Virus record (IMG/VR): IMGVR_UViG_3300028601_000019
Coordinates: 4,130-68,129 of that record
Origin: a virus
Taxonomy: Duplodnaviria > Heunggongvirae > Uroviricota > Caudoviricetes
Strand: one strand, 5' to 3'
DNA: 64,000 nucleotides
This document shows positions 508-55,966 of the stretch, piece by piece (the first letter of the stretch is position 1; the number at the start of each line of letters is the position of its first letter). The notes under the pieces were generated by a model that saw nothing but the letters and a program-made list of their open reading frames with translations, was not told where the DNA came from and did no database searches. The position numbers and the translations under genes were made by a program.

Positions 508-939
508 TTAGATTTGAATAGCAATATTATCAATGTAGATTTTGTTTTCTGATTTCATTTGAATTGAAAACATTTGGAAACCTGATGGTGCTTCAATTTC
601 TTCAATCTGTTTAATTTTCTTTCTTTGAAAAAGAACATGACTTAGATTTAGACTTTTAGCTTTTACCAATGATTTATCAATAAGCATAAATTTTACATTA
701 TGGGAAACCTGAATATAATTTCCATCTTCAAGGGTTACTTTGATTAGAGATTTTTGATTGGCCTCTTCGATTAAAATGACTGGAGAAAAACCATTTACTG
801 TTAAAATTTCAAGAAATCTTTTGTTGATTTTTTTGTTGTCAAGTGCGCTTTTTAAAACATCAACCCTAATTGTGCTTAGTTTGTTTTTTCCCGTCTTAAC
901 AGTTACACTTGAACCTCTGTGAACATAACAATTTTCCAT
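508..939 (-). CDS. Hypothetical protein, 143 aa.
   Basis: ORF with an AAGGA ribosome-binding site 8 nt upstream of the ATG. A TAA lies in frame upstream. No in-frame TGA. Confidence 0.55.
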   Translation of the reverse strand: MENCYVHRGSSVTVKTGKNKLSTIRVDVLKSALDNKKINKRFLEILTVNGFSPVILIEEANQKSLIKVTLEDGNYIQVSHNVKFMLIDKSLVKAKSLNLSHVLFQRKKIKQIEEIEAPSGFQMFSIQMKSENKIYIDNIAIQI

Positions 940-1058
940 GATTATAATTCCTTTTCGTTTTGAATTATAATTATTTATTTAGATTCATTTTCTAATGAAG
1001 AACATTGATGTTTTAATGAATTTTTCATTGATTTCCTCTCAATTATAAATTTGTTTTC

Positions 1059-1066
1059 TATAAATA
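1059..1066 (+). promoter_or_regulatory. T4-type late promoter motif TATAAATA. It sits in an 8-nt insertion that is present in IS copy 1 and absent from copy 2, upstream of tnpB.
   Basis: Exact TATAAATA. Copy 2 reads TTCTATATATAATATT at the same place. Confidence 0.4.
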
Positions 1067-1098
1067 GATATATAATATTAAAACTAGGTTGTAAACAA

Positions 1099-2280
1099 AT
1101 GATTAGATCATCCAAACATATTTTGAAGTATCAGACTGGTTCCAAGACGAAAGTCTTGAACCAGCTTTTTGACGACTTCAGAACTGACTTGTCTTGGTAT
1201 ATAGATCTGATCATTGCTGGGCAATTGCCTCTAACCAAGTTCATGTCATCCAAGGACTTGCCTTCGGGGATCATTACTCATTCTGCTTGGAAACAAATTC
1301 TGTATAAAACAGCATCTGAAATTGTTCGTTCTCAATACAAACAAGCCTCTAATCAAAGATTCAAGCATTACAAGAAATTGTTCCACAAGTGCAGTAGTGC
1401 AAACAAACATTGTTTTTTTACTGACAAACGATTTAGTGAACTGAATCTCAAGCCAATTCATCAATCTAGGTTCTTTAGTAAGCCAGACTTAAAGAACTTT
1501 TCAATCACACTAGATTCTAGATTGATTGACTTTCAATATGGCTTGCATTTCGATGAATTTGTAAGAATTAAAACCCCATTGTTCCATGAGCACAAGAAAC
1601 GTGCCATTACAATCAATATTCCAATCAAACATCACAAACATAGTCGTAAATTCGAGTCATGGGAACGAAAGAACTCAGTTCGATTGACATTAAAGAACGG
1701 AGTCATGAATCTTGAATTGATCTATGAGAAAGATGCACCTAAACTAAAGACAGATGGTTCTGTTCTTGGAATCGATCAGGGCTACAAGAAACTAATGTCA
1801 TGCTCCGATGGAACATTTCTTGGTTCTGAGATGGAATCAATCTACAAGTTCATTTCCAACAAAAAACAAGGCTCTAAGGCTTTCAAGAGAGCATTGATTC
1901 ATAGGACCAATGAAACGAACAGAATTTGTAATTCTCTAGATCTTTCTGATGTCAAAGAACTTGTTGTCGAGGACCTCAAGAACTTGAAACATAAATCAAA
2001 ACTGTCAACAAATTTTATGAACAAGATGCAACGCTGGGTTTATCCAGCAGTACTGGGCAAATTGGAATCCTTGGCTGAAATGAACGGTGTTCATTTCACG
2101 AAGGTGAATCCTGCTTATACTTCGCAGACATGTTCTAATTGCGGATGTGTAGATCCTGAGTCTCGCCAAGGCGAAGACTTCATGTGTCTGCATTGTGGCT
2201 ATGAGATTGATGCAGACTGAAATGCATCAATCAACATTGCCCGTTTGGGAATTTATAGTTCCCAAAGTCCAAAAAGCTAA
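1099..2280 (+). CDS. tnpB: TnpB (IS605 OrfB family RuvC-like RNA-guided nuclease), about 393 aa.
   Basis: RuvC-I motif GIDQG; RuvC-II motif VVEDLKNL; zinc finger CSNCGC...CLHCG; RuvC-III motif DAD-TGA-NASINI. The ORF continues 20 codons past the TGA to a TAA. Confidence 0.85.
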
Positions 2281-2318
2281 TTTCATTGTTTTTCATTGAA
2301 ATTGGCAACTATGATCTC

Positions 2319-4310
2319 TTATCAAGTAGATTCTTCAAGATAGTGATCATCATTAATATCTGAAAGAATACCTCATACATCCTCTTCTTCTTTGTTTTTA
2401 AAAAGGTCAACCTCATCCTTAAAAAGTTCTGTATCAATAAGATAGCACATCCAATATAGACCTGAAACAAGGTCATCTCCACCATCTGTACTTGAAGTAA
2501 ACTTTCCATTCTTTTCAATAAAAGTAGAAATTTGTTTTGCTGTTTCCCTATCTTTAATTATTAGAGAACCGTCTTCAATAAGTTTTTTCATTGTGATAAC
2601 AGCTTTGGTTTTAGATGCTGATGTGGCTCTAATTCCGATTTCATTCTCTTTATTTCCAGAATTGTAAAGATTTGGATTTTCAAAAATTCACCAAAGATTT
2701 TGAGTAACAGTAGATCCCTCAGCATTGTTCTCTGCTCCAATAATAGCATCATTATAATAAATTGAAAGCCTGTTAATGATGGAAGAAAGTTCATAGGTAT
2801 CTGTGACATTGGATTGGAAAGTTGCAGCATTAACTAACTTAACTGGTTTGAATGAGTCTATTCTATAGATTTGAATAGTAGCATCATGAGCACCTGATCC
2901 TTTTGATGGATCAACACCAATAAGAAACTTTTCTCCTTGCTTTGGTTTATGATACACTCGTAATCTATCATTTAGATCTGTTTCTTGAGGATCTTCAATT
3001 GTTGTGTTAATAAATTCAATCCCAGCAGTTGAAACTAGAGTATTAGATGACCCGAGGAACTCAACTTCAAATTCCTGTTTGAATTTTGCAAGGTTGCCCA
3101 TATTCTTAATCTGTTTATCTCTTCAGGTCTTTGTTCTTCCAGGAATCATATCCCAAGTAACTTTCATATGTTTGTATTCATTTCTTTTTGCTTCAGCACC
3201 GGAATATATTTCATGAAATAGATTAAACACACCATTTGGGGTTGAAATGATAATAATTTTAGCCTCATCAGAAGATGAAATTGCTGGATATACTGAAGTA
3301 TAAAATTCTCTTGCTATACCGTCGGAGACGAATCCAAGTTCGTCGAGTAGAAGAAGTGCTACTGAACGCCCCCGAAAGGTATCTTCAGTTGTGCCGGCAG
3401 TTTCAATTTTTGACCCATTTTCAAATTCTATTGATTGTTTATTATATTCAACAACACCCGGTTTAAGATAGAAAGGAAGCTCTTCATACATAATTTTAAT
3501 ACGTCTAAGAAGGTCTTTTGCAGAACTTGCCTTATTAGATGCTATTCCAATAAATTTATCAGAGTGAAATATAGCATATCATAAAGCAAAAGCCCCTACT
3601 GTTGTTGAGTTATGACTCTTTACACCATTTGTATAATAACATTCTCCATCAACATCTAAACAATCATACATATTAGATGATGTATCTAATTTTTCAACAT
3701 TAGAAATTTCTATATCACCATTTTCGGTTTCTATAAAATCCCCAATAGTTAGATCCTTAGCATAAATTTCCTTGTCATCAGAAAATAGTATATGATTATC
3801 AGCACACACAAATTCAATGCCATTATTCAATGATACTTTATATTCATTATATTCAACAGTTTTACCAACACCAGAAAAATCTTTTCATCCATCTGGAGTT
3901 CAAATTTCATAATCTTCACAATTTCTTTTCTCTATAAATTTATCATTTATAACAAAAGAAGATGTTGTTAGTTTGTCAAAGAATTCCCCAATGGTTAATT
4001 CTTCTTCTATTCCTGTTTTCTTGTTTCTTATCTTTATTTTTGTATCCCAAGAAACGCACTTGCCCGATTGTCTACAGAATAAAAAAGTTAAGTATCTATG
4101 ATCTTTACACATTTTAATCATCTTTTTCTGGAAAGGATACAACAAATCTCCAAGCTTTTTTCTTCCACCATCAATTGTTACGATTGTAACAAAGTTTAAA
4201 AAATATAAAACATCTTCAGAACACTTTACAAGATCTGAAATCATTTCTGGTGTGTATTCATCTTCCATTCCTGGATTTTTTACAAATTTATCGTCATATC
4301 TAATTGACAT
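2319..4310 (-). CDS. gp17: Terminase large subunit (T4 gp17-like) containing a mini-intein. The precursor is about 663 aa and is read through 6 in-frame TGA codons.
   Basis: Five standard-code ORFs lie in one frame, separated only by TGA. T4 gp17 motifs are present: LFCRQSGK (Walker A), VEYNKQSIEFENGSKI and KIIIISTPNGVFNLFHEIY. The TGA aligns with an aromatic position in gp17. Confidence 0.85.
3609..4058 (-). other. Hint-domain mini-intein of 150 aa inserted in the terminase P-loop. It runs from Cys1 (CVSWDTKI...) to ...VKSHN and is followed by the +1 Ser of the extein (STTVGAFAL).
   Basis: The extein junctions QSGK|C and HN|STTV reconstitute QSGK-STTV, which matches T4 QLGKTTVV. Intein blocks A (CVSWDT), B (ADNH) and F/G (DCLDVDGECYYTNGVKSHN) are present. 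There is no endonuclease domain. Confidence 0.75.
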
Positions 4311-27331: not shown

Positions 27332-27405
27332 GGCCCAGTAACTCAACTGGATAGAGTACGAACCTCCTAAGTTCGAAGTTGCAAGATCGTACCTTGCCGG
27401 GGTCA
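27332..27405 (+). tRNA. tRNA-Arg (anticodon CCU), 74 nt, with one A-G mismatch in the acceptor stem.
   Basis: Hand-folded cloverleaf: acceptor GGCCCAG, D-arm ACTC/GAGT, anticodon arm CGAAC-CTCCTAA-GTTCG, T-arm GCAAG-ATCGTAC-CTTGC. Confidence 0.6.
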
Positions 27406-27411
27406 CAAAAT

Positions 27412-27484
27412 GCTCCTGTAGTTCAATTAGCAGAATCCCCGGCTCATAACCGGACAGTTGTAGGTGCAAATCCTGCCGGGAGCA
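27412..27484 (+). tRNA. tRNA with a CAU anticodon (elongator Met, or Ile if modified to lysidine), 73 nt.
   Basis: Hand-folded cloverleaf: acceptor GCTCCTG/CGGGAGC, anticodon loop CTCATAA, T-arm GTAGG-TGCAAAT-CCTGC. The 1:72 pair is G-C, so it is not an initiator. Confidence 0.65.
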
Positions 27485-27508
27485 CAAACTTTTAAAAGGA
27501 GATTTGAA

Positions 27509-28483: not shown

Positions 28484-28780
28484 AGGGTGGAAGATATTCC
28501 GGTGAAATTTATGTTCGTAAAAATGATGATGGGAGTTATAAACTTGAAATTGAATCTTTTATGGGATCATCAGTAACTTGTAATATTAAAGATGGAGAAT
28601 ACTTCCTTCATGTTGATGGTGCTGGTCCAGGAGAGGATTCTTTCTTTTCTGTATATGATGATGATGGAAACTGGGTTGACATTGATTATGATATGATTGA
28701 ACTTGACGATTTTGATAAAAAAGATGTTGAAAAGTTTTATAAGATTCGTGATCTTGGTGGGGATGCTACCTATGGAGCAG
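28140..28780 (+). repeat. Tandem direct duplication of about 318 bp x 2. The second copy is out of frame.
   Basis: 28157-28470 is repeated at 28473-28790. The junction reads TTATTTTCTGG(G/A)AGTAGAGGGTGG. Confidence 0.8.
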
Positions 28781-28794
28781 GGAGGAATGGTTAA
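28561..28794 (+). pseudogene. Duplicated 3' fragment of the 28019 gene.
   Basis: The amino-acid sequence is identical to the C-terminus of the 28019 protein. Confidence 0.5.
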
Positions 28795-29116
28795 TGAAAA
28801 TTAGGAAATTTTTTGTAAGCAATAGTTCAAGCAGTAGCTTCATTGTCCTTACACAGGGAATTTCTGAAATTCAAAAAGAACTTCTTTTAAACATTGAAGA
28901 TGAGTGGTTTAAACAAGATCCTTGGAGAATTACTGAAGAAGAATTTTGGATTGAAGGGTATACATCCATGGATAACTTTGATATGAATGAATATATGGAA
29001 AAGATTGGTATTGATGTTAAAAAATATGTAAAATGGTGGTATGTTTACTTATGTTGGATCAATACTTGATGATGGAAATTTTGTTTATTCGATTGTCATT
29101 CGCATGTATTTACATT
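28794..29116 (+). CDS. Paralog of the 28019 gene (MKIRKFFVSNSSSSSFI). Its 3' end overlaps the 29041 ORF in another frame.
   Basis: N-terminal paralogy. Ends with a W-W-W run via TGA codons. Confidence 0.4.
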
Positions 29117-29262
29117 CCTTGGATAATGGGTTTATTGATGCTATTATTACATGGAATGATGGTGAGCGTGTAAATGTGACGGATGAAAAGGTTGATTATA
29201 ACATGCTCATGAATAAGCCGAACCTCTTTGCCACTACATATCTTGTTGAGGAAGCCCATTAA
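29041..29262 (+). CDS. Hypothetical protein of 73 aa in the +1 frame relative to the 28794 gene.
   Basis: Clean ORF without TGA. Confidence 0.35.
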   Translation: MFTYVGSILDDGNFVYSIVIRMYLHSLDNGFIDAIITWNDGERVNVTDEKVDYNMLMNKPNLFATTYLVEEAH

Positions 29263-29287
29263 TAATTTAACTTAGAGGAAAATTAAA

Positions 29288-29584
29288 ATGTGTGAAAATT
29301 CTACGATTATTGTTTATGATCCTTATGGAAATGCAAATTTGACCAATGACGGCAATTTGCATGAAAAGGCAAAGGAACTTCTTACTGACTTTAGGGTACA
29401 TGAGATTTATAGGTCCATTACCATTACTGTATGTCAGAAGTCTCTTGCAGGAACCCTTGTTTCCATGTGCAAAAGCAATTATCCCAATTATGGGTGGGTA
29501 AAGGTTTTTGACCCCTATAATGCTCTAACCAATTCCAAGTATCTGAAACATTACGTTCAGAATTCAAGTCCCGAAATCGACTAA
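29288..29584 (+). CDS. Hypothetical protein, 98 aa.
   Basis: GAGGAAAATTAAA ribosome-binding site. Confidence 0.5.
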   Translation: MCENSTIIVYDPYGNANLTNDGNLHEKAKELLTDFRVHEIYRSITITVCQKSLAGTLVSMCKSNYPNYGWVKVFDPYNALTNSKYLKHYVQNSSPEID

Positions 29585-29592
29585 TCTTTTTT

Positions 29593-29658
29593 GGGAGAGA
29601 TGAACCTCTTTGAGGTCATAGCAAGCCTTGAACTTGCCTCAATTAAATTGACTCTCCC
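29593..29658 (+). repeat. 66-nt structured intergenic repeat, copy 2.
   Basis: Identical to 25858..25923. Confidence 0.7.
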
Positions 29659-29683
29659 CTTCTTTATTTAAAAGGACTTATAT

Positions 29684-30226
29684 ATGGAAAAATATTTTAA
29701 AAATTTGGTTGAAGATTTAGAATGTTTACTTGATGATTATGTTGTTTACCCATATAAAAGAATTAGAGATAAGTATTACGATGTTAAATATGGAATCAAG
29801 AACCTAATTCGATGGTTCCCAGTTATTTGGGGTGATCGTGATTGGGATTTTGCATATATGTTTGCTCTTCTCGAAAAGAAGTTTGAACACTATGAAAAAG
29901 AGTGGAGTTCTGATGCATGTTTTGTTGTAGGATCTGAAAAACAAGTAAAGAGATTCAAGATTTGCAAAGAACTTTGTAGACGATTAAAAGATGATTGGTA
30001 TTATCATGAAAATACTTTTATGTTCCATGATAAGAAATGGGGGGATTTAGAATTTACAGATAGCCCTAGATGTATTACACGAACAAATATAAAATCTAAG
30101 GAAGATGATGATCTTGAAGCAACAGAATCCCTTAGATTATTTAAGATTGAAAATGCAAGAAAAGATGCGGATGTTGAACTTCTTCAAATGTATATTAGAA
30201 AATATTGGAAGACATGGTGGTGGTAA
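29684..30226 (+). CDS. Hypothetical protein, 180 aa.
   Basis: ORF with a ribosome-binding site. Confidence 0.5.
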   Translation: MEKYFKNLVEDLECLLDDYVVYPYKRIRDKYYDVKYGIKNLIRWFPVIWGDRDWDFAYMFALLEKKFEHYEKEWSSDACFVVGSEKQVKRFKICKELCRRLKDDWYYHENTFMFHDKKWGDLEFTDSPRCITRTNIKSKEDDDLEATESLRLFKIENARKDADVELLQMYIRKYWKTWWW

Positions 30227-30227
30227 T

Positions 30228-30525
30228 GGATAGAACATCTGACTCCACAAAGATTGAAAAGATTATTATAATCCACACACCGCTTGGAAGATGCTACTAT
30301 AATGTTGGTGGAATGAGAACTGATACAACAGCATGTATAATGTGTGAAAGTAATATTCCTTTTGAATCTGAATGTATAACGATTAAAATAGACGATTCAT
30401 TTGAAACAGAAGAAATAAATGAATGTGTGAAGTTTCATAAAGATGATTTACTTGATGAACAAGAAAGATTTTTGAAAGAAAAAGAGAAACGAAACTTTAG
30501 AAGAATGTGTAAAGGAAGGAGATAA
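30228..30525 (+). CDS. Hypothetical Cys-rich protein of about 99 aa.
   Basis: ORF. Start chosen at MDRTSDS. Confidence 0.4.
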
Positions 30526-30526
30526 A

Positions 30527-30961
30527 ATGACTATTCAAAATGACCTAATGAAAGAACTGGCTAATACTGCCAAAGAAGGCGTGACTATCCGTAGGAACAA
30601 CATCAAGTTTCTTGTTGGGCAGTTTCAAAGAGTGGCTAAAAACAAGGAAAAGATTGTTGAAGATTCTGAAGCTATCAAGATCATGAAGAATCTTTACTCA
30701 TCAATGAAGGAAATTACTCTTCCAAGTTTGAAAAAAGATGGTTATGAGTATTTTGAAGCCATTGATTTTATTGTCCTTTGTGAGGAACTTCTTCCAAAAA
30801 TGGCTACAGAATCAGAAGTTATTGAATTTCTTACATCTATTGACTTCAAAAGTCTGAAGTCTCCAATGCAAGCTATTGGAATTACAGTAAAACACTTTAA
30901 TGGAAATGTGAAACCTGAACTTGTAAGAAATTGTTTACCTTTTCTTGGGATCTATGTATAG
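30527..30961 (+). CDS. Hypothetical protein, 144 aa.
   Basis: ORF. Confidence 0.5.
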   Translation: MTIQNDLMKELANTAKEGVTIRRNNIKFLVGQFQRVAKNKEKIVEDSEAIKIMKNLYSSMKEITLPSLKKDGYEYFEAIDFIVLCEELLPKMATESEVIEFLTSIDFKSLKSPMQAIGITVKHFNGNVKPELVRNCLPFLGIYV

Positions 30962-30979
30962 TTGCTTTAGGAGGGATAA

Positions 30980-31345
30980 ATGGTTATTGATAATGTTGAT
31001 GAACTAAACGACCAGATTAGTAAATTTTTAAAATTTGAAAAGGATCTTAAAGATTATTTGATTGGTTATTTTAAAAACAAATCAATTTCTCTTGAAGATA
31101 GATGGGCTACCTTTGAAAGAATTGGGAACATTTTTCCAATCCATCCATGGTACATATCACTTAAAGAGCTTGATAATAATGATTTAGAATGGTATGCTGA
31201 TTTTGGATATGATAGATATAGAACAGTTGAATTTCTTGAAGTTGTTCAAACAATTGAAGAAAATGATTATATGGACGTAGATTTAAATAGATTAAAAGAA
31301 GAAATTCTTGAAAGTGGATATTTCGGGTTCACTCACGATTGGTAA
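30980..31345 (+). CDS. Hypothetical protein, 121 aa.
   Basis: GGAGGG ribosome-binding site. Confidence 0.5.
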   Translation: MVIDNVDELNDQISKFLKFEKDLKDYLIGYFKNKSISLEDRWATFERIGNIFPIHPWYISLKELDNNDLEWYADFGYDRYRTVEFLEVVQTIEENDYMDVDLNRLKEEILESGYFGFTHDW

Positions 31346-31584
31346 AAATTAACGGAGGAAAAATGTTAAAATTATATTGTTGGGTTGTTCTTGTGTTTTT
31401 TATTTTGGTAGGAAACTTTGGGTTTGTGTTACCCTATCTTGTATCTGCTGCTCATACTGAGCTTGTTCTTTTGGGTTGTGTTATTGGGTTGATTATTCCT
31501 ATTGCGTTAGTGTTTATTGTTAAATATAAAATTATCCCAATTGTTAAAGAAATGATTGGAAAAGCTACCAAAGGAGAAATGTAG
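31339..31584 (+). CDS. Small protein with two transmembrane helices, 81 aa. A possible NfeD-like partner of the SPFH gene.
   Basis: Two hydrophobic helices. Lies immediately upstream of the SPFH gene. Confidence 0.45.
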   Translation: MVKINGGKMLKLYCWVVLVFFILVGNFGFVLPYLVSAAHTELVLLGCVIGLIIPIALVFIVKYKIIPIVKEMIGKATKGEM

Positions 31585-31585
31585 A

Positions 31586-32449
31586 ATGAAAAAGATTATG
31601 TTGCTTGTGGGTCTAATGTTGATGATGTTTATGTGTACCGGATGCCTTGAGCGTGTTCCTTCTGGCCATGTTGGTGTAAAGGTTTTCCTACTTGGCGGTG
31701 ATAAAGGCGTAGATAGTCAAGAACTTGGGGTTGGTCGTTATTGGATTGGATGGAATGAGGAATTACATATTTTCCCAACATTTACTCAAAACTATGTTTG
31801 GACTGCCGATGTAACAGAGGGTTCTGAAACAGATGAATCAATTACATTCCAAACAATGGAAGGACTATCAGTAAATGCTGATATTGGTATTGCATATCAT
31901 ATTGATCCTACTAAGGTATCAGTAATTTTTCAGAAGTATCGTAAGGGTGTGCAAGAAATTACTGATATTTACCTACGAAACATTGTAAGAGATGCCTTTG
32001 CAACTGTCGCATCTAATCGCCCTGTAGAGTTTGTTTATGGTGAAGGAAAATCTGAACTTAGAACAGAAGTTGAAAATATTGTAAAGGCTAAAGTTGAACC
32101 AATTGGTATTATCATTGAACAGATTTCTTTTGTAGGCAATTTAAGACTTCCAGAAACTGTTATTAGTGCCATTAATGCTAAGATTGAGGCAACACAAACG
32201 GCACAGAGAGCAGAAAATCAACTTCGTGAAGCAGAGGCAGAAGCACGAAAGAAGATTGCAGAAGCTCAAGGCCAAGCCGAATCCATTAAGTTGGTCGCAA
32301 TTTCACAAGCCGAAGCTAACAAGATTCTTAGTGCATCTATTACATCTAACCTAGTAGAATATAAGCGTATTGAAAAGTGGAACGGGATCATGCCAACATA
32401 TATGGCAGGGAACATGCCAACACCAATGTTAAATATGAAGTCTGAGTAA
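31586..32449 (+). CDS. SPFH/Band-7 (prohibitin/HflK-like) family lipoprotein, 287 aa.
   Basis: Signal peptide with a lipobox (MKKIMLLVGLMLMMFMCTGC). SPFH core GHVGVKVFLLGG... A C-terminal EA-repeat coiled coil (REAEAEARKKIAEAQGQAE). Confidence 0.65.
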   Translation: MKKIMLLVGLMLMMFMCTGCLERVPSGHVGVKVFLLGGDKGVDSQELGVGRYWIGWNEELHIFPTFTQNYVWTADVTEGSETDESITFQTMEGLSVNADIGIAYHIDPTKVSVIFQKYRKGVQEITDIYLRNIVRDAFATVASNRPVEFVYGEGKSELRTEVENIVKAKVEPIGIIIEQISFVGNLRLPETVISAINAKIEATQTAQRAENQLREAEAEARKKIAEAQGQAESIKLVAISQAEANKILSASITSNLVEYKRIEKWNGIMPTYMAGNMPTPMLNMKSE

Positions 32450-32466
32450 AATAACTGTTTACAAGT

Positions 32467-32505
32467 ATGAAAGGGTTTGATAGGGTTTTCTTATCAAACC
32501 CTTTC
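32467..32505 (+). terminator. Hairpin GAAAGGGTTTGATA-gggttttct-TATCAAACCCTTTC, with a 14-bp stem.
   Basis: Perfect inverted repeat after the SPFH gene. The following T-run is weak. Confidence 0.55.
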
Positions 32506-32522
32506 ACATTTAGGAGATTAGA

Positions 32523-32591
32523 AATGGCAACAATTCACAATAATGGATGGGATTTTGTTAAAGAAGGAGAAACATACCAATATTATATTTA
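32523..32591 (+). CDS. Short ORF of 22 aa (MATIHNNGWDFVKEGETYQYYI) that ends at the IS left boundary. It may be the remnant of an interrupted gene.
   Basis: GGAG ribosome-binding site. The stop TAG is the first IS nucleotides. Confidence 0.25.
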
Positions 32592-33926
32592 GATTCATTT
32601 TCTAATGAAGAATATTGATGTTTTAATGAATTTTTCATTAATTTCCTCCTGAAATTATAAAATTAGTCAAAAACAAAATTTGTTTTCTATATATAATATT
32701 AAAATTAGGATTTCCAATGATTAGATCATCCAAGCACATTTTGAAGTATCAGACTGGTTCAAAGACGAGAGTCTTGAACCAGCTGTTTGACGACTTCAGA
32801 ACAGATTTGTCTTGGTACATAGATCTAATCATTTCGGGGCAATTGCCACTGACCAAGTTCATGTCATCCAAGGACTTGCCTTCAGGGATCATTACTCACT
32901 CCCAATGGAAACAAATTCTATACAAGACAGCATCTGAAATTGTTCGTTCTCAATACAAACAAGCCTCAAATCGACGATTCAAGCATTACAAGAAATTGTT
33001 CCATAGGTGCATTAGTGCAAATAAGCATTGTTCTTTCACTGATAAGAGATTTAGTGAACTGAACCTCAAACCAATTCATCAATCTAGGTTCTTTAGTAAA
33101 CCAGATCTAAAGAATTTCTCAATAACACTAGATTTAAGATTGATTGATTTTCAATATGGACTTCATTTCGATGAATTTGTTAGAATCAAGACTCCATTGT
33201 TTCATGAACACAAGAAACGAGCTATTACAATCAATGTCCCAATCAAGCATCACAAGCATAGTCGTAAGTTTGAGTCTTGGAAACGCAAGAACTCAGTTAG
33301 ATTGACACTAAAGAACAATGTCATGAATCTTGAATTGATCTATGAGAAAGAAGCTCCAAAACTAAAGACCAATGGTTCTGTTCTTGGAATTGATCAAGGC
33401 TATAAGAAATTATTGTCTTGTTCCGATGGAACATTTCTTGGTTCCGAAATGGAATCAATCTACAAATTCATTTCAAACAAAAAGCAAGGTTCCAAATCCT
33501 TCAAGAGAGCATTGATTCATAGGACCAATGAAACGAATCGAATTTGTAATTCTCTAAATCTTTCTAATGTCAAAGAGCTTGTTGTCGAGGACCTCAAGAA
33601 CCTAAAACATAAAACTAAACTAAGTACTAATTTTATGAACAAGATGCAACGCTGGGTTTACCCAGCAGTACTGGGCAAATTGGAATCCTTGGCTGAAATG
33701 AACGATGTTCATTTCACGAAGGTGAATCCTGCTTATACTTCGCAGACATGTTCACAATGCGGATGTGTAGATCCTGGGTCTCGCCAAGGCGAAGGCTTCA
33801 GGTGTTTGCACTGTGGACATGAGATTGATGCAGATTGAAATGCATCAATCAATATTGCCCGTTTGGGAATTTATAGTTCCCAAAGTCCAAAAAGCTAATT
33901 TCATTGTTCTTCATTGAAATTAGTAA
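32588..33926 (+). mobile_element. IS605/IS1341-family TnpB-only element, copy 2.
   Basis: More than 90% identical to 978..2312 across the left end, tnpB and the right end. Confidence 0.75.
32717..33898 (+). CDS. tnpB: TnpB, copy 2, about 393 aa. The terminal TGA is read as Trp.
   Basis: Same motifs as copy 1: CSQCGC...CLHCGHEIDAD-TGA-NASINIARLG. Confidence 0.85.
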
Positions 33927-34149
33927 CTATCTATAGTAACAAAAAAACGTAGTTGTGGGAAACCTTCATATGAATCAATGTGTTTTGCTCTACAAAACAT
34001 GGCCCAAGTTATGAAGGAAAACAACATTACAGAAGTTTTTATGCCTAGAATTGGTTGTGGTTTAGACCGACTATCTTGGCCAGCAGTAAGGGAACAACTC
34101 AAATATGTGTTTGGCGATAGTGAGGTAACTTTCAATGTCTACTATCTCT
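33927..34149 (+). pseudogene. Macro-domain C-terminal fragment. The N-terminal half is missing and the frame opens exactly at the IS right end.
   Basis: YESMCFALQNMAQVMKENNITEVFMPRIGCGLDRLSW...EVTFNVYY resembles the macro C-terminal strands (SIAFPAISTG type). There is no VNAAN/GGGV region upstream. Confidence 0.4.
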
Positions 34150-34632
34150 AATATATTTGAAAATAGTTTGATTGAAAGTTTTAAAGGAGATTATGTATTT
34201 TTAAGTAATTTTTATTTTACATATGTTCTTTATGATGGCATTGTTTGAAAAACAGCTGAGCATGCATATCAGGCCTCTAAAACTCTTGATCCAAAAGAAA
34301 AGAAATGGATATTAGATTGTCCTACTCCACACCTTACCAAAGATTTGGGCCAAAGACTATCATTAAGGGAAGATTGGAATAAAGTAAAGATTCAAATTAT
34401 GAGAGATATTATATTTCAAAAGTTTGAAGCTAATAAAAACATTAAAGATAAACTTATTGCAACACATCCATTTATACTAATTGAGGGAAATGTATGGCAT
34501 GACAACTTTTGAGGGATGTGTAAATGTATAAAATGTGAAAATTTAAAAGTAAAGCATAATCACCTAGGAATTATTCTTATGGAATTGCGATCTTTATATA
34601 TAAACAATTCAGTGTTTTTTAAGGAGAATTAA
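34135..34632 (+). CDS. NADAR (YbiA/DUF1768) domain protein, 165 aa, with 2 in-frame TGA.
   Basis: GDYVFLSNFY and TAEHAYQASK motifs. Confidence 0.6.
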
Positions 34633-55346: not shown

Positions 55347-55966
55347 TAAACTCCTAATTTTTTAACTATTTATATAAGGAGGTATGTGTGAAGAAATTAT
55401 TTCGCGAAGAATATGAAACATATAATGATGAGGCCATTAAAATTTCTAAAGAAATAGGAGTTGAGATCAGAAAAATGATTGATCATTATTGTAATGATTG
55501 CGGGTACTACGTAAATGAGATTCAACATATTTTATTTGACGAGGAATATTGAAATCAAAAAGGAGAAAAGAAAGAATGATTTGGCATAGTATTAGGGATT
55601 TTTTACCTGGACGAAATGTAAGACAAATACTACTATATTTTGCATCATCTCAAAACTTAGTTCTGATAAATTTAGATGAAGATCCTACCAATACTTCTAA
55701 TATAGTTCGGGAGTACATTTTTAAACGAAAATATCATGTAGAAGATAAACCTGATAATTATATTGATTGGCCCACTCATTGGATGGAAGTCAAATTTCCG
55801 GTAATTTAATTTATGAAAAGATACAAAATTAAAGTGTTTAAATATGGGGATGCTAGTTTTGATTATATAATCATACGAGCATTTGGATTTGATTCTCTTT
55901 GTTTACAAGCTGAAGATTTTTGTAGGAAGTCAACAACATATAAAGAATGGATTTTTGTTGGAGAAG

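What the first reader, a model, noticed from the sequence alone, without database searches (positions are those of the whole stretch)
32523..34149. IS copy 2 sits inside or next to a truncated macro-domain gene
Immediately after the IS right end a frame opens that encodes a macro-domain C-terminal half (EVFMPRIGCGLDRLSW...EVTFNVYY). It has no N-terminal catalytic half. Immediately before the IS there is a 22-aa ORF that stops in the IS left end. This looks like IS-mediated disruption or truncation of a phage macro gene. Such a gene would be a likely ADP-ribose eraser.
Basis: inference. Interest (0 to 1): 0.6.

Follow-up and report, generated by a model that had tools for sequence, protein, structure and literature searches.

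The report
IS-flanked remnant of phage macro gene
A small mobile element carrying an RNA-guided nuclease gene (TnpB) sits where about 430 bases are missing from a T4-like phage that reads TGA as tryptophan, and the loss leaves only the back half of an ADP-ribose-removing "macro" gene, which is an ordinary kind of gene loss in a variable anti-defence locus.

Summary
A 1,342-bp TnpB-only IS200/IS605-type element lies at 32589..33930. It is followed within one base by the last 72 codons of a TARG1/OARD1-like macro gene (33932..34151). A 22-codon ORF (32524..32592) precedes it and stops in the IS left end.

IS-free syntenic relatives carry an intact 138-139-aa macro gene at this position, just upstream of NADAR and the SMC-like gene.

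Three corrections apply.
- The 22-aa ORF is not the start of the macro gene. It is the first 20 codons of a conserved upstream 94-aa gene.
- About 427 bp are missing at the IS, so this is an IS-flanked deletion and not a simple insertion.
- The retained half holds the equivalents of both TARG1 catalytic residues (Lys84, Asp125). The missing part is the N-terminal half of the fold, which includes the family's invariant HCIA.D..MG.GIAV motif.

Read this way, tnpB is 393 aa and the adjacent NADAR gene is intact.

A near-identical contig shares the left flank and the IS but has a different right flank. The IS right end is therefore a rearrangement breakpoint, or that contig is an assembly chimera.

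Verdict: a real but ordinary pseudogenisation. Whether the IS caused it is inferred, not shown.

The parts
32524..32592 (+). 22-codon remnant ORF. It holds the first 20 codons of a conserved 94-aa phage gene of unknown function, then YI and a TAG stop inside the IS left end.
   Evidence: Window 32508..32583 matches L004 5696..5773 at 88%. That region is the start of the L004 gene 5714..5998, MATIHNNGWDFVKEGETYQYKEGG.... Homology ends at 32583. The L004 94-aa protein has no Pfam match.
32584..32588 (+). TATAT pentamer directly 5' of the IS left end. It looks like a target/TAM site and is absent from the 94-aa gene of relatives.
   Evidence: The left-flank pentamers of four full-length copies are TTTAT (copy 1), TATAT (copy 2), TCTAT (L011) and TATAT (L041). 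L004 reads CAATAT|AAGGAAGG at this point.
32589..33930 (+). IS copy 2: a 1,342-bp TnpB-only IS200/IS605-family element. It has subterminal hairpins, no terminal inverted repeats and no target duplication.
   Evidence: 88.5% identical to copy 1. The ends are fixed by the empty site in L015 and by other copies. The hairpins fold with z = -2.6 at the left end and z = -5.9 at the right end.
32717..33898 (+). tnpB, 393 codons when TGA is read as Trp. The in-frame TGA at 33836..33838 lies inside the RuvC-III motif DAD-W-NASINIA. The candidate RuvC residues sit in GIDQG, VVEDL and EIDAD, and the zinc-ribbon cysteines are CSQC...CLHC.
   Evidence: Pfam Cas12f1-like_TNB scores 9.7e-20. The two window copies share 369 of 393 residues, with dS 0.50 and dN/dS 0.07. 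TGA is kept in all 7 copies examined, with synonymous changes in both neighbouring codons. An identical 393-aa protein is on record as P0018, and there are 1,014 homologues.
33740..33930 (+). 3' end of tnpB plus the right end: the presumed omega-RNA scaffold and the right-end hairpin recognised by TnpA. This assignment is inferred.
   Evidence: The RNA fold is -73.9 kcal/mol with z = -6.4. The non-coding right-end sequence is nearly invariant among copies that differ by dS 0.5. Only one compensatory pair was seen and there is no Rfam family match.
33931..33950 (+). Flank immediately 3' of the right end (CTATAGTAACAAAAAAACGT). This would be the omega-RNA guide if the element works like characterised TnpB elements. 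Base 33931 (C) has no counterpart in relatives.
   Evidence: Inferred from the architecture of TnpB systems (PMC8612924, PMC10055086). Sequence.
33932..34151 (+). Remnant of a TARG1/OARD1-like macro gene: the last base of codon 67, codons 68-139 and the stop. It keeps the Lys84 and Asp125 equivalents and lacks the first 67 codons. The first ATG is at 33978, with no Shine-Dalgarno sequence upstream.
   Evidence: 77-89% nucleotide identity to intact genes in L004, L006, L001, L025 and L028, starting exactly at 33932. PDB OARD1 8e-16. Alignment to 138-139-aa homologues. Only 8 differences in 216 nt against L028.
34135..34632 (+). Intact NADAR gene, 165 codons, with TGA = Trp at 34246..34248 and 34510..34512. 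It overlaps the macro stop by 17 nt and is the partner gene of the locus.
   Evidence: Pfam NADAR scores 1.9e-24 in one stretch spanning both TGA positions. The first TGA aligns with TGG in L028. Syntenic NADAR genes occur in L001, L046 and L048.
979..2312 (+). IS copy 1, the same family. It is inserted cleanly between the 3' end of the large-terminase gene and the next gene, and serves as the reference for the true IS ends.
   Evidence: Empty site in L015...TTATTTAT|TAGACC..., against window ...TTATTTAT|[IS]|GATCTC....

Best explanation
The window comes from a distant T4-like myophage that reads TGA as tryptophan. Its relatives carry, between a Band_7/SPFH gene and an SMC-like/RecA block, a variable cassette region that ends in two ADP-ribose-removing genes. 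These are a 139-aa TARG1/DarG-type macro gene and a NADAR gene. By analogy with characterised phage proteins, these are most likely counter-defence enzymes that strip ADP-ribose from phage DNA modified by DarT-type toxins.

In this genome a 1.34-kb TnpB-only IS200/IS605 element occupies the place of about 427 bp. The lost segment is the last 74 codons of the upstream 94-aa gene and the first 67 codons of the macro gene. The macro gene is therefore a pseudogene. It has no start codon, no ribosome-binding site and no N-terminal half of the fold. NADAR and everything downstream remain intact.

Shown:
- the anatomy and the IS ends
- the intact gene in IS-free relatives
- the exact break points
- code 4

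Inferred:
- that the IS caused the loss, for example through two nearby insertions at ..AATAT sites followed by recombination between the copies, or through an aberrant TnpA/TnpB-associated break repaired by end-joining
- that the IS makes an omega RNA whose guide is the macro-derived flank
- that the macro and NADAR genes act against DarTG-type defence
For: Synteny and intact genes in relatives.

Break points. Homology to the 94-aa gene stops at 32583, 5 nt before the left end. Macro homology resumes at 33932, 1 nt after the right end. In relatives both break points lie directly 3' of an AATAT pentamer: CCAATAT|AAGG and (G/A)AATAT|AGTAAC. This resembles the TNTAT left-flank motif of the IS.

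IS family features:
- a clean empty site with no duplication
- the TNTAT left flank in four contexts
- subterminal hairpins
- a TnpB domain under purifying selection, dN/dS 0.07

Macro identity. The fragment scores 8e-16 against TARG1. The profile of the intact family scores 1.6e-35 against TARG1 over its full length and about 1e-6 to 1e-7 against DarG macrodomain chains 5m3i and 5m31.

The remnant shows no decay: 8 differences in 216 nt against L028, and no stop or frameshift. The loss is therefore recent.

The junction recurs in independent assemblies.

Code 4. Window TGA codons align with TGA 85 times and TGG 19 times in relatives, and never with a glycine codon. Coding density is 89.5% under code 4.

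Phage identity: gp23 3.9e-99, gp20 5.9e-90, T4-type terminase and tail sheath.

Functional analogy: AdfN NADAR in T4-like phages (PMC11825919) and a chimallivirus DarG2-like antitoxin (PMC13309987, abstract).
Against: Neither IS junction is a clean insertion junction relative to any relative. Five bases (TATAT) on the left and one (C) on the right have no counterpart, so no simple mechanism reproduces the sequence.

No relative was found with the IS inside an otherwise intact macro or 94-aa gene.

Other relatives have macro genes truncated at different points with no IS at the break. In L029/L030 the remnant starts near residue 99. In L028 it starts near residue 45. The region also varies in gene content, so deletions happen here without this IS.

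Contig L040 is 99.98% identical over 5,214 nt up to the last base of the IS and then continues into unrelated DNA. Either the right end is a genuine rearrangement point or short-read assemblies are unreliable across this repeat.

No TnpA gene was found in the window (motif search only).

Support for the omega-RNA structure is weak: one compensatory pair.

No DarT-related function has been tested for these particular proteins.
Confidence: 0.7

Rival explanations
1. The deletion came first, or arose independently, through the ordinary cassette turnover of this hypervariable region. The IS later landed at or next to the novel joint, which offers a TATAT target. On this view the IS is a bystander and not the cause.
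For: The region between Band_7 and macro differs in gene content among relatives. L001 has a GIY-YIG gene plus 125-, 94- and 95-aa genes. L004 has 79- and 94-aa genes. The window has none complete. Two other truncated macro alleles exist with no IS at the break (L029/L030 and L028). The left junction carries a canonical TNTAT target, as a bona fide insertion would.
Against: The IS would have to land exactly on a pre-existing joint, since the missing segment is bounded within 5 nt and 1 nt by the IS termini. No IS-free copy of the fused allele was found, but no search could have detected one. all used patterns containing IS right-end sequence.
Confidence: 0.15
2. The apparent deletion, or the linkage of the two flanks, is a short-read assembly artefact. 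Two or more near-identical IS copies would have been collapsed or mis-joined. The real genome might carry IS - 427 bp - IS, or the two flanks might belong to different IS copies.
For: L040 joins the same left flank and IS to a completely different right flank in sample ERZ27247324. L047 from the same sample starts 118 nt inside the right end and carries the macro flank. The Logan contig L046 also breaks inside the right end. This is typical repeat behaviour.
Against: Two independent full-length paths (the window and JGI contig L045, 1 mismatch in 8,321) span left flank, IS and macro remnant. The only other IS copy in the 64-kb window is 88% identical, too different to be collapsed. No contig among those fetched here carries the missing segment attached to IS ends.
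Confidence: 0.1
3. The remnant is still functional: a short C-terminal macro-derived polypeptide (57-74 aa), or a regulatory or translational-coupling sequence kept for NADAR expression.
For: The frame stays open over 72 codons, with only conservative changes against L028. The remnant holds the Lys and Asp equivalents. Its 3' end overlaps the NADAR start by 17 nt, as in intact relatives. All three truncated alleles keep the 3' part of the gene.
Against: Half of the macro fold is missing, including the invariant HCIA.D..MG.GIAV motif. There is no Shine-Dalgarno sequence before the 33978 ATG and no promoter-like site nearby. The low divergence is equally explained by a recent event.
Confidence: 0.05

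Closest known systems
TARG1/OARD1 (human C6orf130) and the DarG antitoxin macrodomain. Phage examples include the chimallivirus DarG2-like antitoxin (PMC13309987).
   Same: The intact relatives align with TARG1 over the full length (E = 1.6e-35) and with DarG macrodomain chains 5m31 and 5m3i (about 1e-6 to 1e-7). The ITKK lysine and the GCGLD aspartate are conserved. The gene is phage-borne and adjacent to a second ADP-ribose hydrolase.
   Different: In this window only codons 68-139 remain, so the gene cannot form a macro domain. No toxin partner is present. Activity on ADP-ribosylated DNA is untested for this family.
IS200/IS605 family, TnpB-only subgroup (IS1341-like). An example is ISCaje1-3 of the T4-like Campylobacter phages CP220 and CPt10 (PMC2853527).
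   Same: The element has a single tnpB gene, subterminal hairpins and no inverted repeats. It inserts 3' of a short motif without target duplication. Multiple diverged copies occur in T4-like phage genomes.
   Different: The protein is only about 26-27% identical to the Campylobacter phage TnpBs. The nearest GenBank phage homologues, at 45-47%, are in Desulfovibrio phage 7757 and an uncultured 462-kb phage. The gene contains a sense TGA codon. Copy 2 is flanked by a deletion rather than a clean insertion.
TnpB/omega-RNA (OMEGA) RNA-guided nucleases, e.g. ISDra2 TnpB (PMC8612924). They act as homing nucleases that keep the transposon at its site (PMC10055086).
   Same: The TnpB-specific domain is present, with candidate RuvC acidic residues and zinc-ribbon cysteines. 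A strongly folding, highly conserved 3' region runs up to the right end. A 5-nt motif lies 5' of the left end where a TAM would be.
   Different: Neither the RNA nor cleavage has been shown here. The TAM is inferred from only three distinct pentamers. Intact macro genes of relatives have TCTAA or TTGAA where the TAM would be, so they are probably not targets of this copy's guide.
AdfN, the orphan NADAR anti-DarTG1 factor of T4-like phages (PMC11825919).
   Same: The neighbouring gene 34135..34632 is a stand-alone NADAR protein in a T4-like phage.
   Different: Orthology to AdfN was not tested. Here NADAR is paired and overlaps with a macro gene, which is now broken.

Membership tests
Macro domain, TARG1/OARD1-like | Significant sequence match to macro or TARG1 proteins | tested here: met
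   The fragment scores 8e-16 against OARD1 chains. Pfam Macro scores 19.4 bits, below the 22-bit cut-off, because only profile positions 68-116 of 118 are present. The profile of intact relatives scores 1.6e-35 against OARD1.
Macro domain, TARG1/OARD1-like | Complete domain of about 140 aa, including the N-terminal half | tested here: not met
   Only residues 68-139 of 139 are encoded. The invariant H23-C-I-A..D28..M31-G..G34-I-A-V motif of the family is absent. The sequence upstream of the IS belongs to a different gene.
Macro domain, TARG1/OARD1-like | Catalytic Lys84 and Asp125 of TARG1 (residue roles taken from established knowledge of TARG1) | tested here: met
   IVTKK aligns with LITKK, and GCGLDRL is identical.
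Macro domain, TARG1/OARD1-like | ADP-ribose binding or hydrolysis | not testable with these tools
   This needs biochemistry. No activity is expected from a half-domain.
IS200/IS605 family (TnpB-only subgroup) | Encodes TnpB (OrfB) with its C-terminal zinc-ribbon/TNB domain | tested here: met
   PF07282 scores 9.7e-20. Sources name close homologues 'IS605 OrfB family transposase'.
IS200/IS605 family (TnpB-only subgroup) | Insertion 3' of a short specific sequence, with no target-site duplication | tested here: met
   The copy 1 empty site in L015 shows insertion exactly after TTTAT and nothing duplicated. The other left flanks are TATAT, TCTAT and TATAT. For copy 2 itself no empty site exists.
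IS200/IS605 family (TnpB-only subgroup) | Subterminal hairpins instead of terminal inverted repeats | tested here: met
   The left-end hairpins are TTCATT/AATGAA and TTAATGAA/TTCATTAA. The right-end hairpin is GCTAATTTCATTG/CATTGAAATTAG, with z = -5.9. The ends TTAGATTC and AACTAT are not inverted repeats.
IS200/IS605 family (TnpB-only subgroup) | Y1 (HUH) transposase TnpA, in cis or in trans | tested here: inconclusive
   There is no tnpA in the element. A motif scan of all code-4 ORFs in the window gave only an antisense shadow ORF. The rest of the phage genome and the host were not available.
TnpB/omega-RNA RNA-guided nuclease | Intact RuvC D-E-D triad and zinc finger | tested here: met
   GIDQG, VVEDL, EIDAD-W-NASINIA and CSQC...CLHC are present in both window copies. 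dN/dS is 0.07. The assignment of residues to the triad follows the motif pattern and not a structure.
TnpB/omega-RNA RNA-guided nuclease | Omega RNA overlapping the 3' end of tnpB and ending at the right end | tested here: inconclusive
   The fold has z = -6.4, and the non-coding right-end sequence is nearly invariant. Only 1 compensatory pair was seen in 7 copies, and no Rfam family matched.
NADAR (neighbouring gene) | NADAR domain over its full length | tested here: met
   PF08719 scores 1.9e-24 over profile positions 9-160 of 163 when TGA is read as Trp.
IStron (group I intron fused to an IS605-type element) | Group I intron at the 5' end of the element | tested here: not met
   Only 128 nt lie between the left end and tnpB. 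No intron family appears in Rfam at E <= 1.

The most novel reading that the evidence does not exclude
In this lineage of code-4 T4-like phages, long-resident TnpB-only elements (copies differ by dS of about 0.5 yet are under strong purifying selection) may act as RNA-guided homing elements. Their right ends would be recurrent recombination break points that remodel the accessory anti-defence region. The macro loss here and the alternative right flank in L040 would be scars of TnpB- or TnpA-associated breaks. The sense TGA inside the RuvC-III motif would restrict active nuclease to cells that decode TGA.
Probability: 0.15. Interest if true: 0.55.

Novelty: new member of a known kind. Interest (0 to 1): 0.3.

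Why it matters
The finding itself is modest. It documents a natural knock-out of one of two adjacent ADP-ribose-removing genes in an uncultured phage. It also shows that this macro-NADAR pair is patchy among close relatives: macro is intact, truncated at three different points, or NADAR is absent. That pattern is expected for accessory counter-defence genes whose value depends on which DarT-type systems the hosts carry.

It also gives a well-defined, apparently active TnpB-only IS family in T4-like phages, with known ends, a candidate TNTAT TAM and several independent insertion contexts. These could be used to test TnpB behaviour in lytic phages.

The practical lesson is that the window must be read with genetic code 4. 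With the standard code, tnpB, NADAR, RecA and many other genes look broken.

Tried and rejected
(1) Simple insertion into the macro gene. Removing the IS in silico gives an open 94-aa frame, and its YQYY-T-IVTKK joint even resembles TARG1 YIYY-L-ITKK. This was rejected when DNA comparison showed that the upstream 20 codons belong to a different gene. The in-frame joint is coincidental.

(2) MAFFT aligned MATIHNNGW / DFVKE / GETY of the remnant ORF to pieces of the macro N-terminus. This is an alignment artefact, for the same reason.

(3) Megablast of the locus against GenBank phages gave no match.

(4) TnpB against GTDB representative genomes found no close relative, so no host clue emerged.

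(5) An exact search for the right-end/macro junction in IMG/VR gave nothing. The generic right-end pattern added only one new contig from the metagenome collection and the six already-known viral contigs.

(6) Placing the alternative right flank of L040: its 160-aa gene has one relative in a 141-kb viral contig whose neighbours are not in the window, so this was uninformative.

(7) Code 25 (TGA = Gly) was rejected. TGA aligns with TGG and never with GGN.

(8) A suppressor tRNA-Trp(UCA) was not found in the window.

(9) An IStron or group I intron, and known RNA families in the IS, were not found.

(10) The covariation test of the omega-RNA fold failed for lack of divergence among copies.

(11) The promoter/terminator scan of the locus gave fewer promoter-like sites than shuffled sequence and nothing usable.

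The 373-aa standard-code TnpB is not on record.
Full report
**1. What is there**

ORF listing and raw sequence show three features in order:
- a 22-codon ORF at 32524..32592, behind an AGGAG
- a 373-codon ORF at 32717..33838 ending ...CLHCGHEIDAD-TGA
- after a short gap, a frame encoding ...IVTKKRSCGKPSYESMCFALQNMAQVMKENNITEVFMPRIGCGLDRLSWPAVREQLKYVFGDSEVTFNVYYL*, which ends at 34151

Self-comparison finds a second copy of the middle segment at 972..2312, 88.5% identical.

**2. Genetic code**

The 373-codon ORF stops at a TGA in the middle of the RuvC-III motif, and the frame continues NASINIARLGIYSSQSPKS*. Both window copies keep this TGA while the preceding Asp codon differs synonymously. 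All seven copies collected keep it too, with synonymous variation in both neighbouring codons.

The downstream NADAR gene has two in-frame TGAs. Read as Trp, it gives one uninterrupted Pfam NADAR match (1.9e-24). One of these TGAs is TGG in relative L028.

Across homologous ORFs of related contigs, window TGA codons align with TGA 85 times and with TGG 19 times. They never align with a glycine codon.

Under code 4 the window holds 85 genes at 89.5% coding density, with 126 TGA and 145 TGG codons. The window is therefore a code-4 genome. No tRNA-Trp(UCA) lies within it; only tRNA-Arg(CCT) and tRNA-Met were found.

The genome is a distant T4-like myophage:
- gp23 major capsid protein, 3.9e-99
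- gp20 portal, 5.9e-90
- T4-type large terminase and tail sheath

Its capsid protein is at most 38% identical to any GenBank phage.

**3. The mobile element**

The 393-aa protein is a TnpB (PF07282, 9.7e-20). The two window copies share 369 of 393 residues, with dS 0.50 and dN/dS 0.07. Both are therefore maintained genes and not recent duplicates.

The ends were fixed with an empty site. Relative L015 reads ...TTATTTAT|TAGACC..., where the window has ...TTATTTAT|[IS copy 1]|GATCTC.... This is a clean insertion 3' of TTTAT with no duplication.

Additional copies all start with TTA(G/A)ATTC and end with AACTAT (L011/L050, L041/42, L033, L043, L009/10 and a solo right-end remnant in L029). The left-flank pentamers are TTTAT, TATAT, TCTAT and TATAT. 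The base after AACTAT is variable.

Both ends carry subterminal hairpins, with z = -5.9 at the right end, and they are not inverted repeats. No tnpA-like ORF was seen in the window (motif search only).

These features match the TnpB-only subgroup of IS200/IS605. The same kind of element has been described in the T4-like Campylobacter phages CP220 and CPt10 (PMC2853527).

The last 190 nt fold strongly as RNA (z = -6.4). The non-coding right-end sequence is almost invariant among copies. Covariation support is minimal, with one compensatory pair, and Rfam has no matching family. The omega-RNA is therefore inferred from the known architecture of TnpB systems (PMC8612924, PMC10055086).

Copy 2 occupies 32589..33930.

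**4. The macro fragment and its relatives**

The fragment matches human OARD1/TARG1 (8e-16) and intact 138-139-aa proteins from metagenomes (up to 83% identity over the shared part, E = 1.6e-39).

A profile of those intact proteins matches TARG1 over its full length (1.6e-35). It matches DarG macrodomain chains more weakly (5m3i 1.8e-7, 5m31 1.1e-6).

Contigs encoding the intact proteins are syntenic with the window:
- L001: Band_7, GIY-YIG, 125 aa, 94 aa, 95 aa, macro(138), NADAR, 112 aa, SMC-like(675), 143 aa, RecA, RyR, NUDIX, 1404 aa
- L004: Band_7, 79 aa, 94 aa, macro(139), SMC-like
- L025/L027: macro followed by NADAR

**5. What happened at the locus**

DNA comparison shows the following:
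- Window 31571..32526 matches L004 Band_7 and the spacer.
- Window 32508..32583 matches the first 60 nt of the L004 94-aa gene. The 20 encoded residues are identical.
- Window 33932.. matches L004 macro from nucleotide 201 onward.

The 427 bp between these two points in L004 are absent (430 bp in L025). The IS lies in their place, separated from the homologous flanks by TATAT on the left and C on the right.

The 22-aa ORF is therefore the decapitated 94-aa gene, not the macro start. The in-frame 'reconstruction' obtained by deleting the IS is a coincidence.

The retained macro part (residues 68-139) contains the equivalents of TARG1 Lys84 and Asp125. It lacks the whole N-terminal half, including the family's invariant HCIA.D..MG.GIAV motif. 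It also has no start codon context. It is a pseudogene.

The remnant differs from the closest relative (L028) by only 8 of 216 nt (4 synonymous, 4 conservative) and has no stop or frameshift. The event is therefore recent.

**6. Was the IS the cause?**

Points in favour:
- Both ends of the missing segment coincide with the IS termini within 5 nt and 1 nt.
- In relatives both break points lie directly 3' of AATAT (CCAATAT|AAGG and GAATAT|AGTAAC). This resembles the element's TNTAT target.

This fits two nearby insertions followed by recombination between the copies, or an aberrant transposase- or nuclease-associated break.

Points against:
- The filler bases (TATAT, C) are unexplained.
- No relative has the IS in an intact gene.
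- The region is intrinsically variable.
- Two other truncated macro alleles exist without an IS at the break. L029/L030 encode a 72-aa product with a foreign N-terminus and have a solo right-end remnant 1.3 kb upstream. L028 breaks near residue 45 and abuts a response-regulator-like ORF, so it may itself be chimeric.

I give the IS-associated deletion 0.7, a pre-existing deletion 0.15, an assembly artefact 0.1 and a still-functional remnant 0.05.

**7. Reality of the junction, and an unexplained variant**

JGI contig L045 shows 1 mismatch in 8,321 and spans the entire structure. ENA L047 and Logan L046 start inside the right end and carry the same right-end/macro junction.

ENA contig L040, from the same sample as L047, is identical to window 28717..33930 except for one base. 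It diverges completely immediately after the last base of the IS, running into two minus-strand genes not present in the window. Either the phage population holds two configurations that differ exactly at the right end, or the assembler mis-joined two IS copies. I could not place the alternative flank.

**8. Function of the locus**

By analogy only:
- Stand-alone NADAR proteins of T4-like phages (AdfN) remove DarT1-made ADP-ribose from phage DNA (PMC11825919).
- A DarG2-like antitoxin is encoded by chimalliviruses (PMC13309987, abstract).
- ICP1 encodes the DarT antitoxin mimic AdfB (PMC11481870).

A macro-NADAR pair would plausibly cover both DarT types. This phage has lost the macro arm and keeps NADAR. 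L004 and L029 lack NADAR. None of this is tested for these proteins.

This copy's predicted guide (CTATAGTAAC...) would match intact macro genes only downstream of TCTAA or TTGAA, not TNTAT. The IS is therefore probably not aimed at intact macro alleles.

**9. Verdict**

The biology is ordinary: an IS-flanked deletion has made a pseudogene of an accessory gene, in a known class of IS and a known class of phage gene. The element is a new member of known kinds.

The more useful by-products are the recognition of code 4, the well-defined TnpB element family in T4-like phages, and the right-end break-point polymorphism.

Noticed in passing
whole window, e.g. 33836..33838, 34246..34248, 34510..34512: The genome uses genetic code 4 (TGA = Trp). 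There are 126 in-frame TGA and 145 TGG codons in 85 genes, spread over structural and replication genes. TGA aligns with TGA or TGG in relatives. Standard-code ORF calling splits tnpB, NADAR, RecA and many others.
   Followed up: yes
window 27332..27485: The only tRNA genes in the window are tRNA-Arg(CCT) and tRNA-Met(CAT). There is no tRNA-Trp(UCA), so TGA decoding must come from the host or from a part of the genome outside the window.
   Followed up: partly
window 2319..4310 (-): The T4-type large terminase carries an insert of about 150 aa directly after the Walker-A-like RQSGK. The insert starts with Cys and ends ...SHN|S, like a mini-intein. Pfam Intein_splicing gives only a weak hit (E = 0.002, below cut-off). 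The 143-aa ORF at 508..939 (-) gives an even weaker hit to the same family.
   Followed up: partly
window 979..2312: IS copy 1 is cleanly inserted between the terminase 3' end and the next gene. Its empty site is present in L015 (around 3147..3154) and L016-L019.
   Followed up: yes
L040 5215..6185 (ENA ERZ27247324 k141_937490): This contig is 99.98% identical to window 28717..33930 but switches to unrelated DNA exactly after the IS right end. The new DNA carries 160-aa and 94-aa genes on the minus strand. It is either a second genome configuration or a chimeric contig.
   Followed up: partly
L029 5001..5219 and 3650..3710; L030-L032; L028 1..150: Relatives carry independently truncated macro alleles. 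L029 (NCBI GCA_029972165.1) encodes a 72-aa product with a foreign N-terminus and has a 61-nt solo right-end remnant of the same IS 1.3 kb upstream. In L028, macro homology starts near residue 45, next to a response-regulator-like ORF on the other strand.
   Followed up: partly
L009/L010 2923..4205; window 55358..55382: A 5'-truncated IS copy lacking the left-end hairpins, together with 28 nt of foreign 3' flank, sits between two copies of a roughly 20-nt ATATAAATAGTTAAAAA sequence. That sequence contains the T4 late-promoter-like TATAAATA. The window has the corresponding empty site. This suggests movement by recombination at repeated promoter sequences rather than by transposition.
   Followed up: partly
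window 34135..34632: An intact NADAR gene overlaps the macro stop codon by 17 nt. Relatives L004 and L029 lack NADAR altogether, so both ADP-ribose-hydrolase genes are patchy in this phage group.
   Followed up: partly
window 32468..32506: A 39-nt near-perfect inverted repeat (AAAGGGTTTGATAGGG...CTTATCAAACCCTTTC) lies between the Band_7 gene and the remnant ORF. It has no T-run and its function is unknown.
   Followed up: no
L004 5476..5695 vs window 32508..32526: L004 has an extra 79-aa gene between Band_7 and the 94-aa gene. The window lacks it, and the two alignments overlap by 19 nt (the RBS/start region). Gene cassettes in this region seem to be exchanged at repeated translation-start sequences.
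   Followed up: no
/ one search hits: This TnpB clade has more than 1,000 homologues. The closest named ones (about 53% identity) are annotated in Candidatus Shapirobacteria (CPR) MAGs. Homologues at 45-47% occur in Desulfovibrio phage 7757 and an uncultured 462-kb phage.
   Followed up: no
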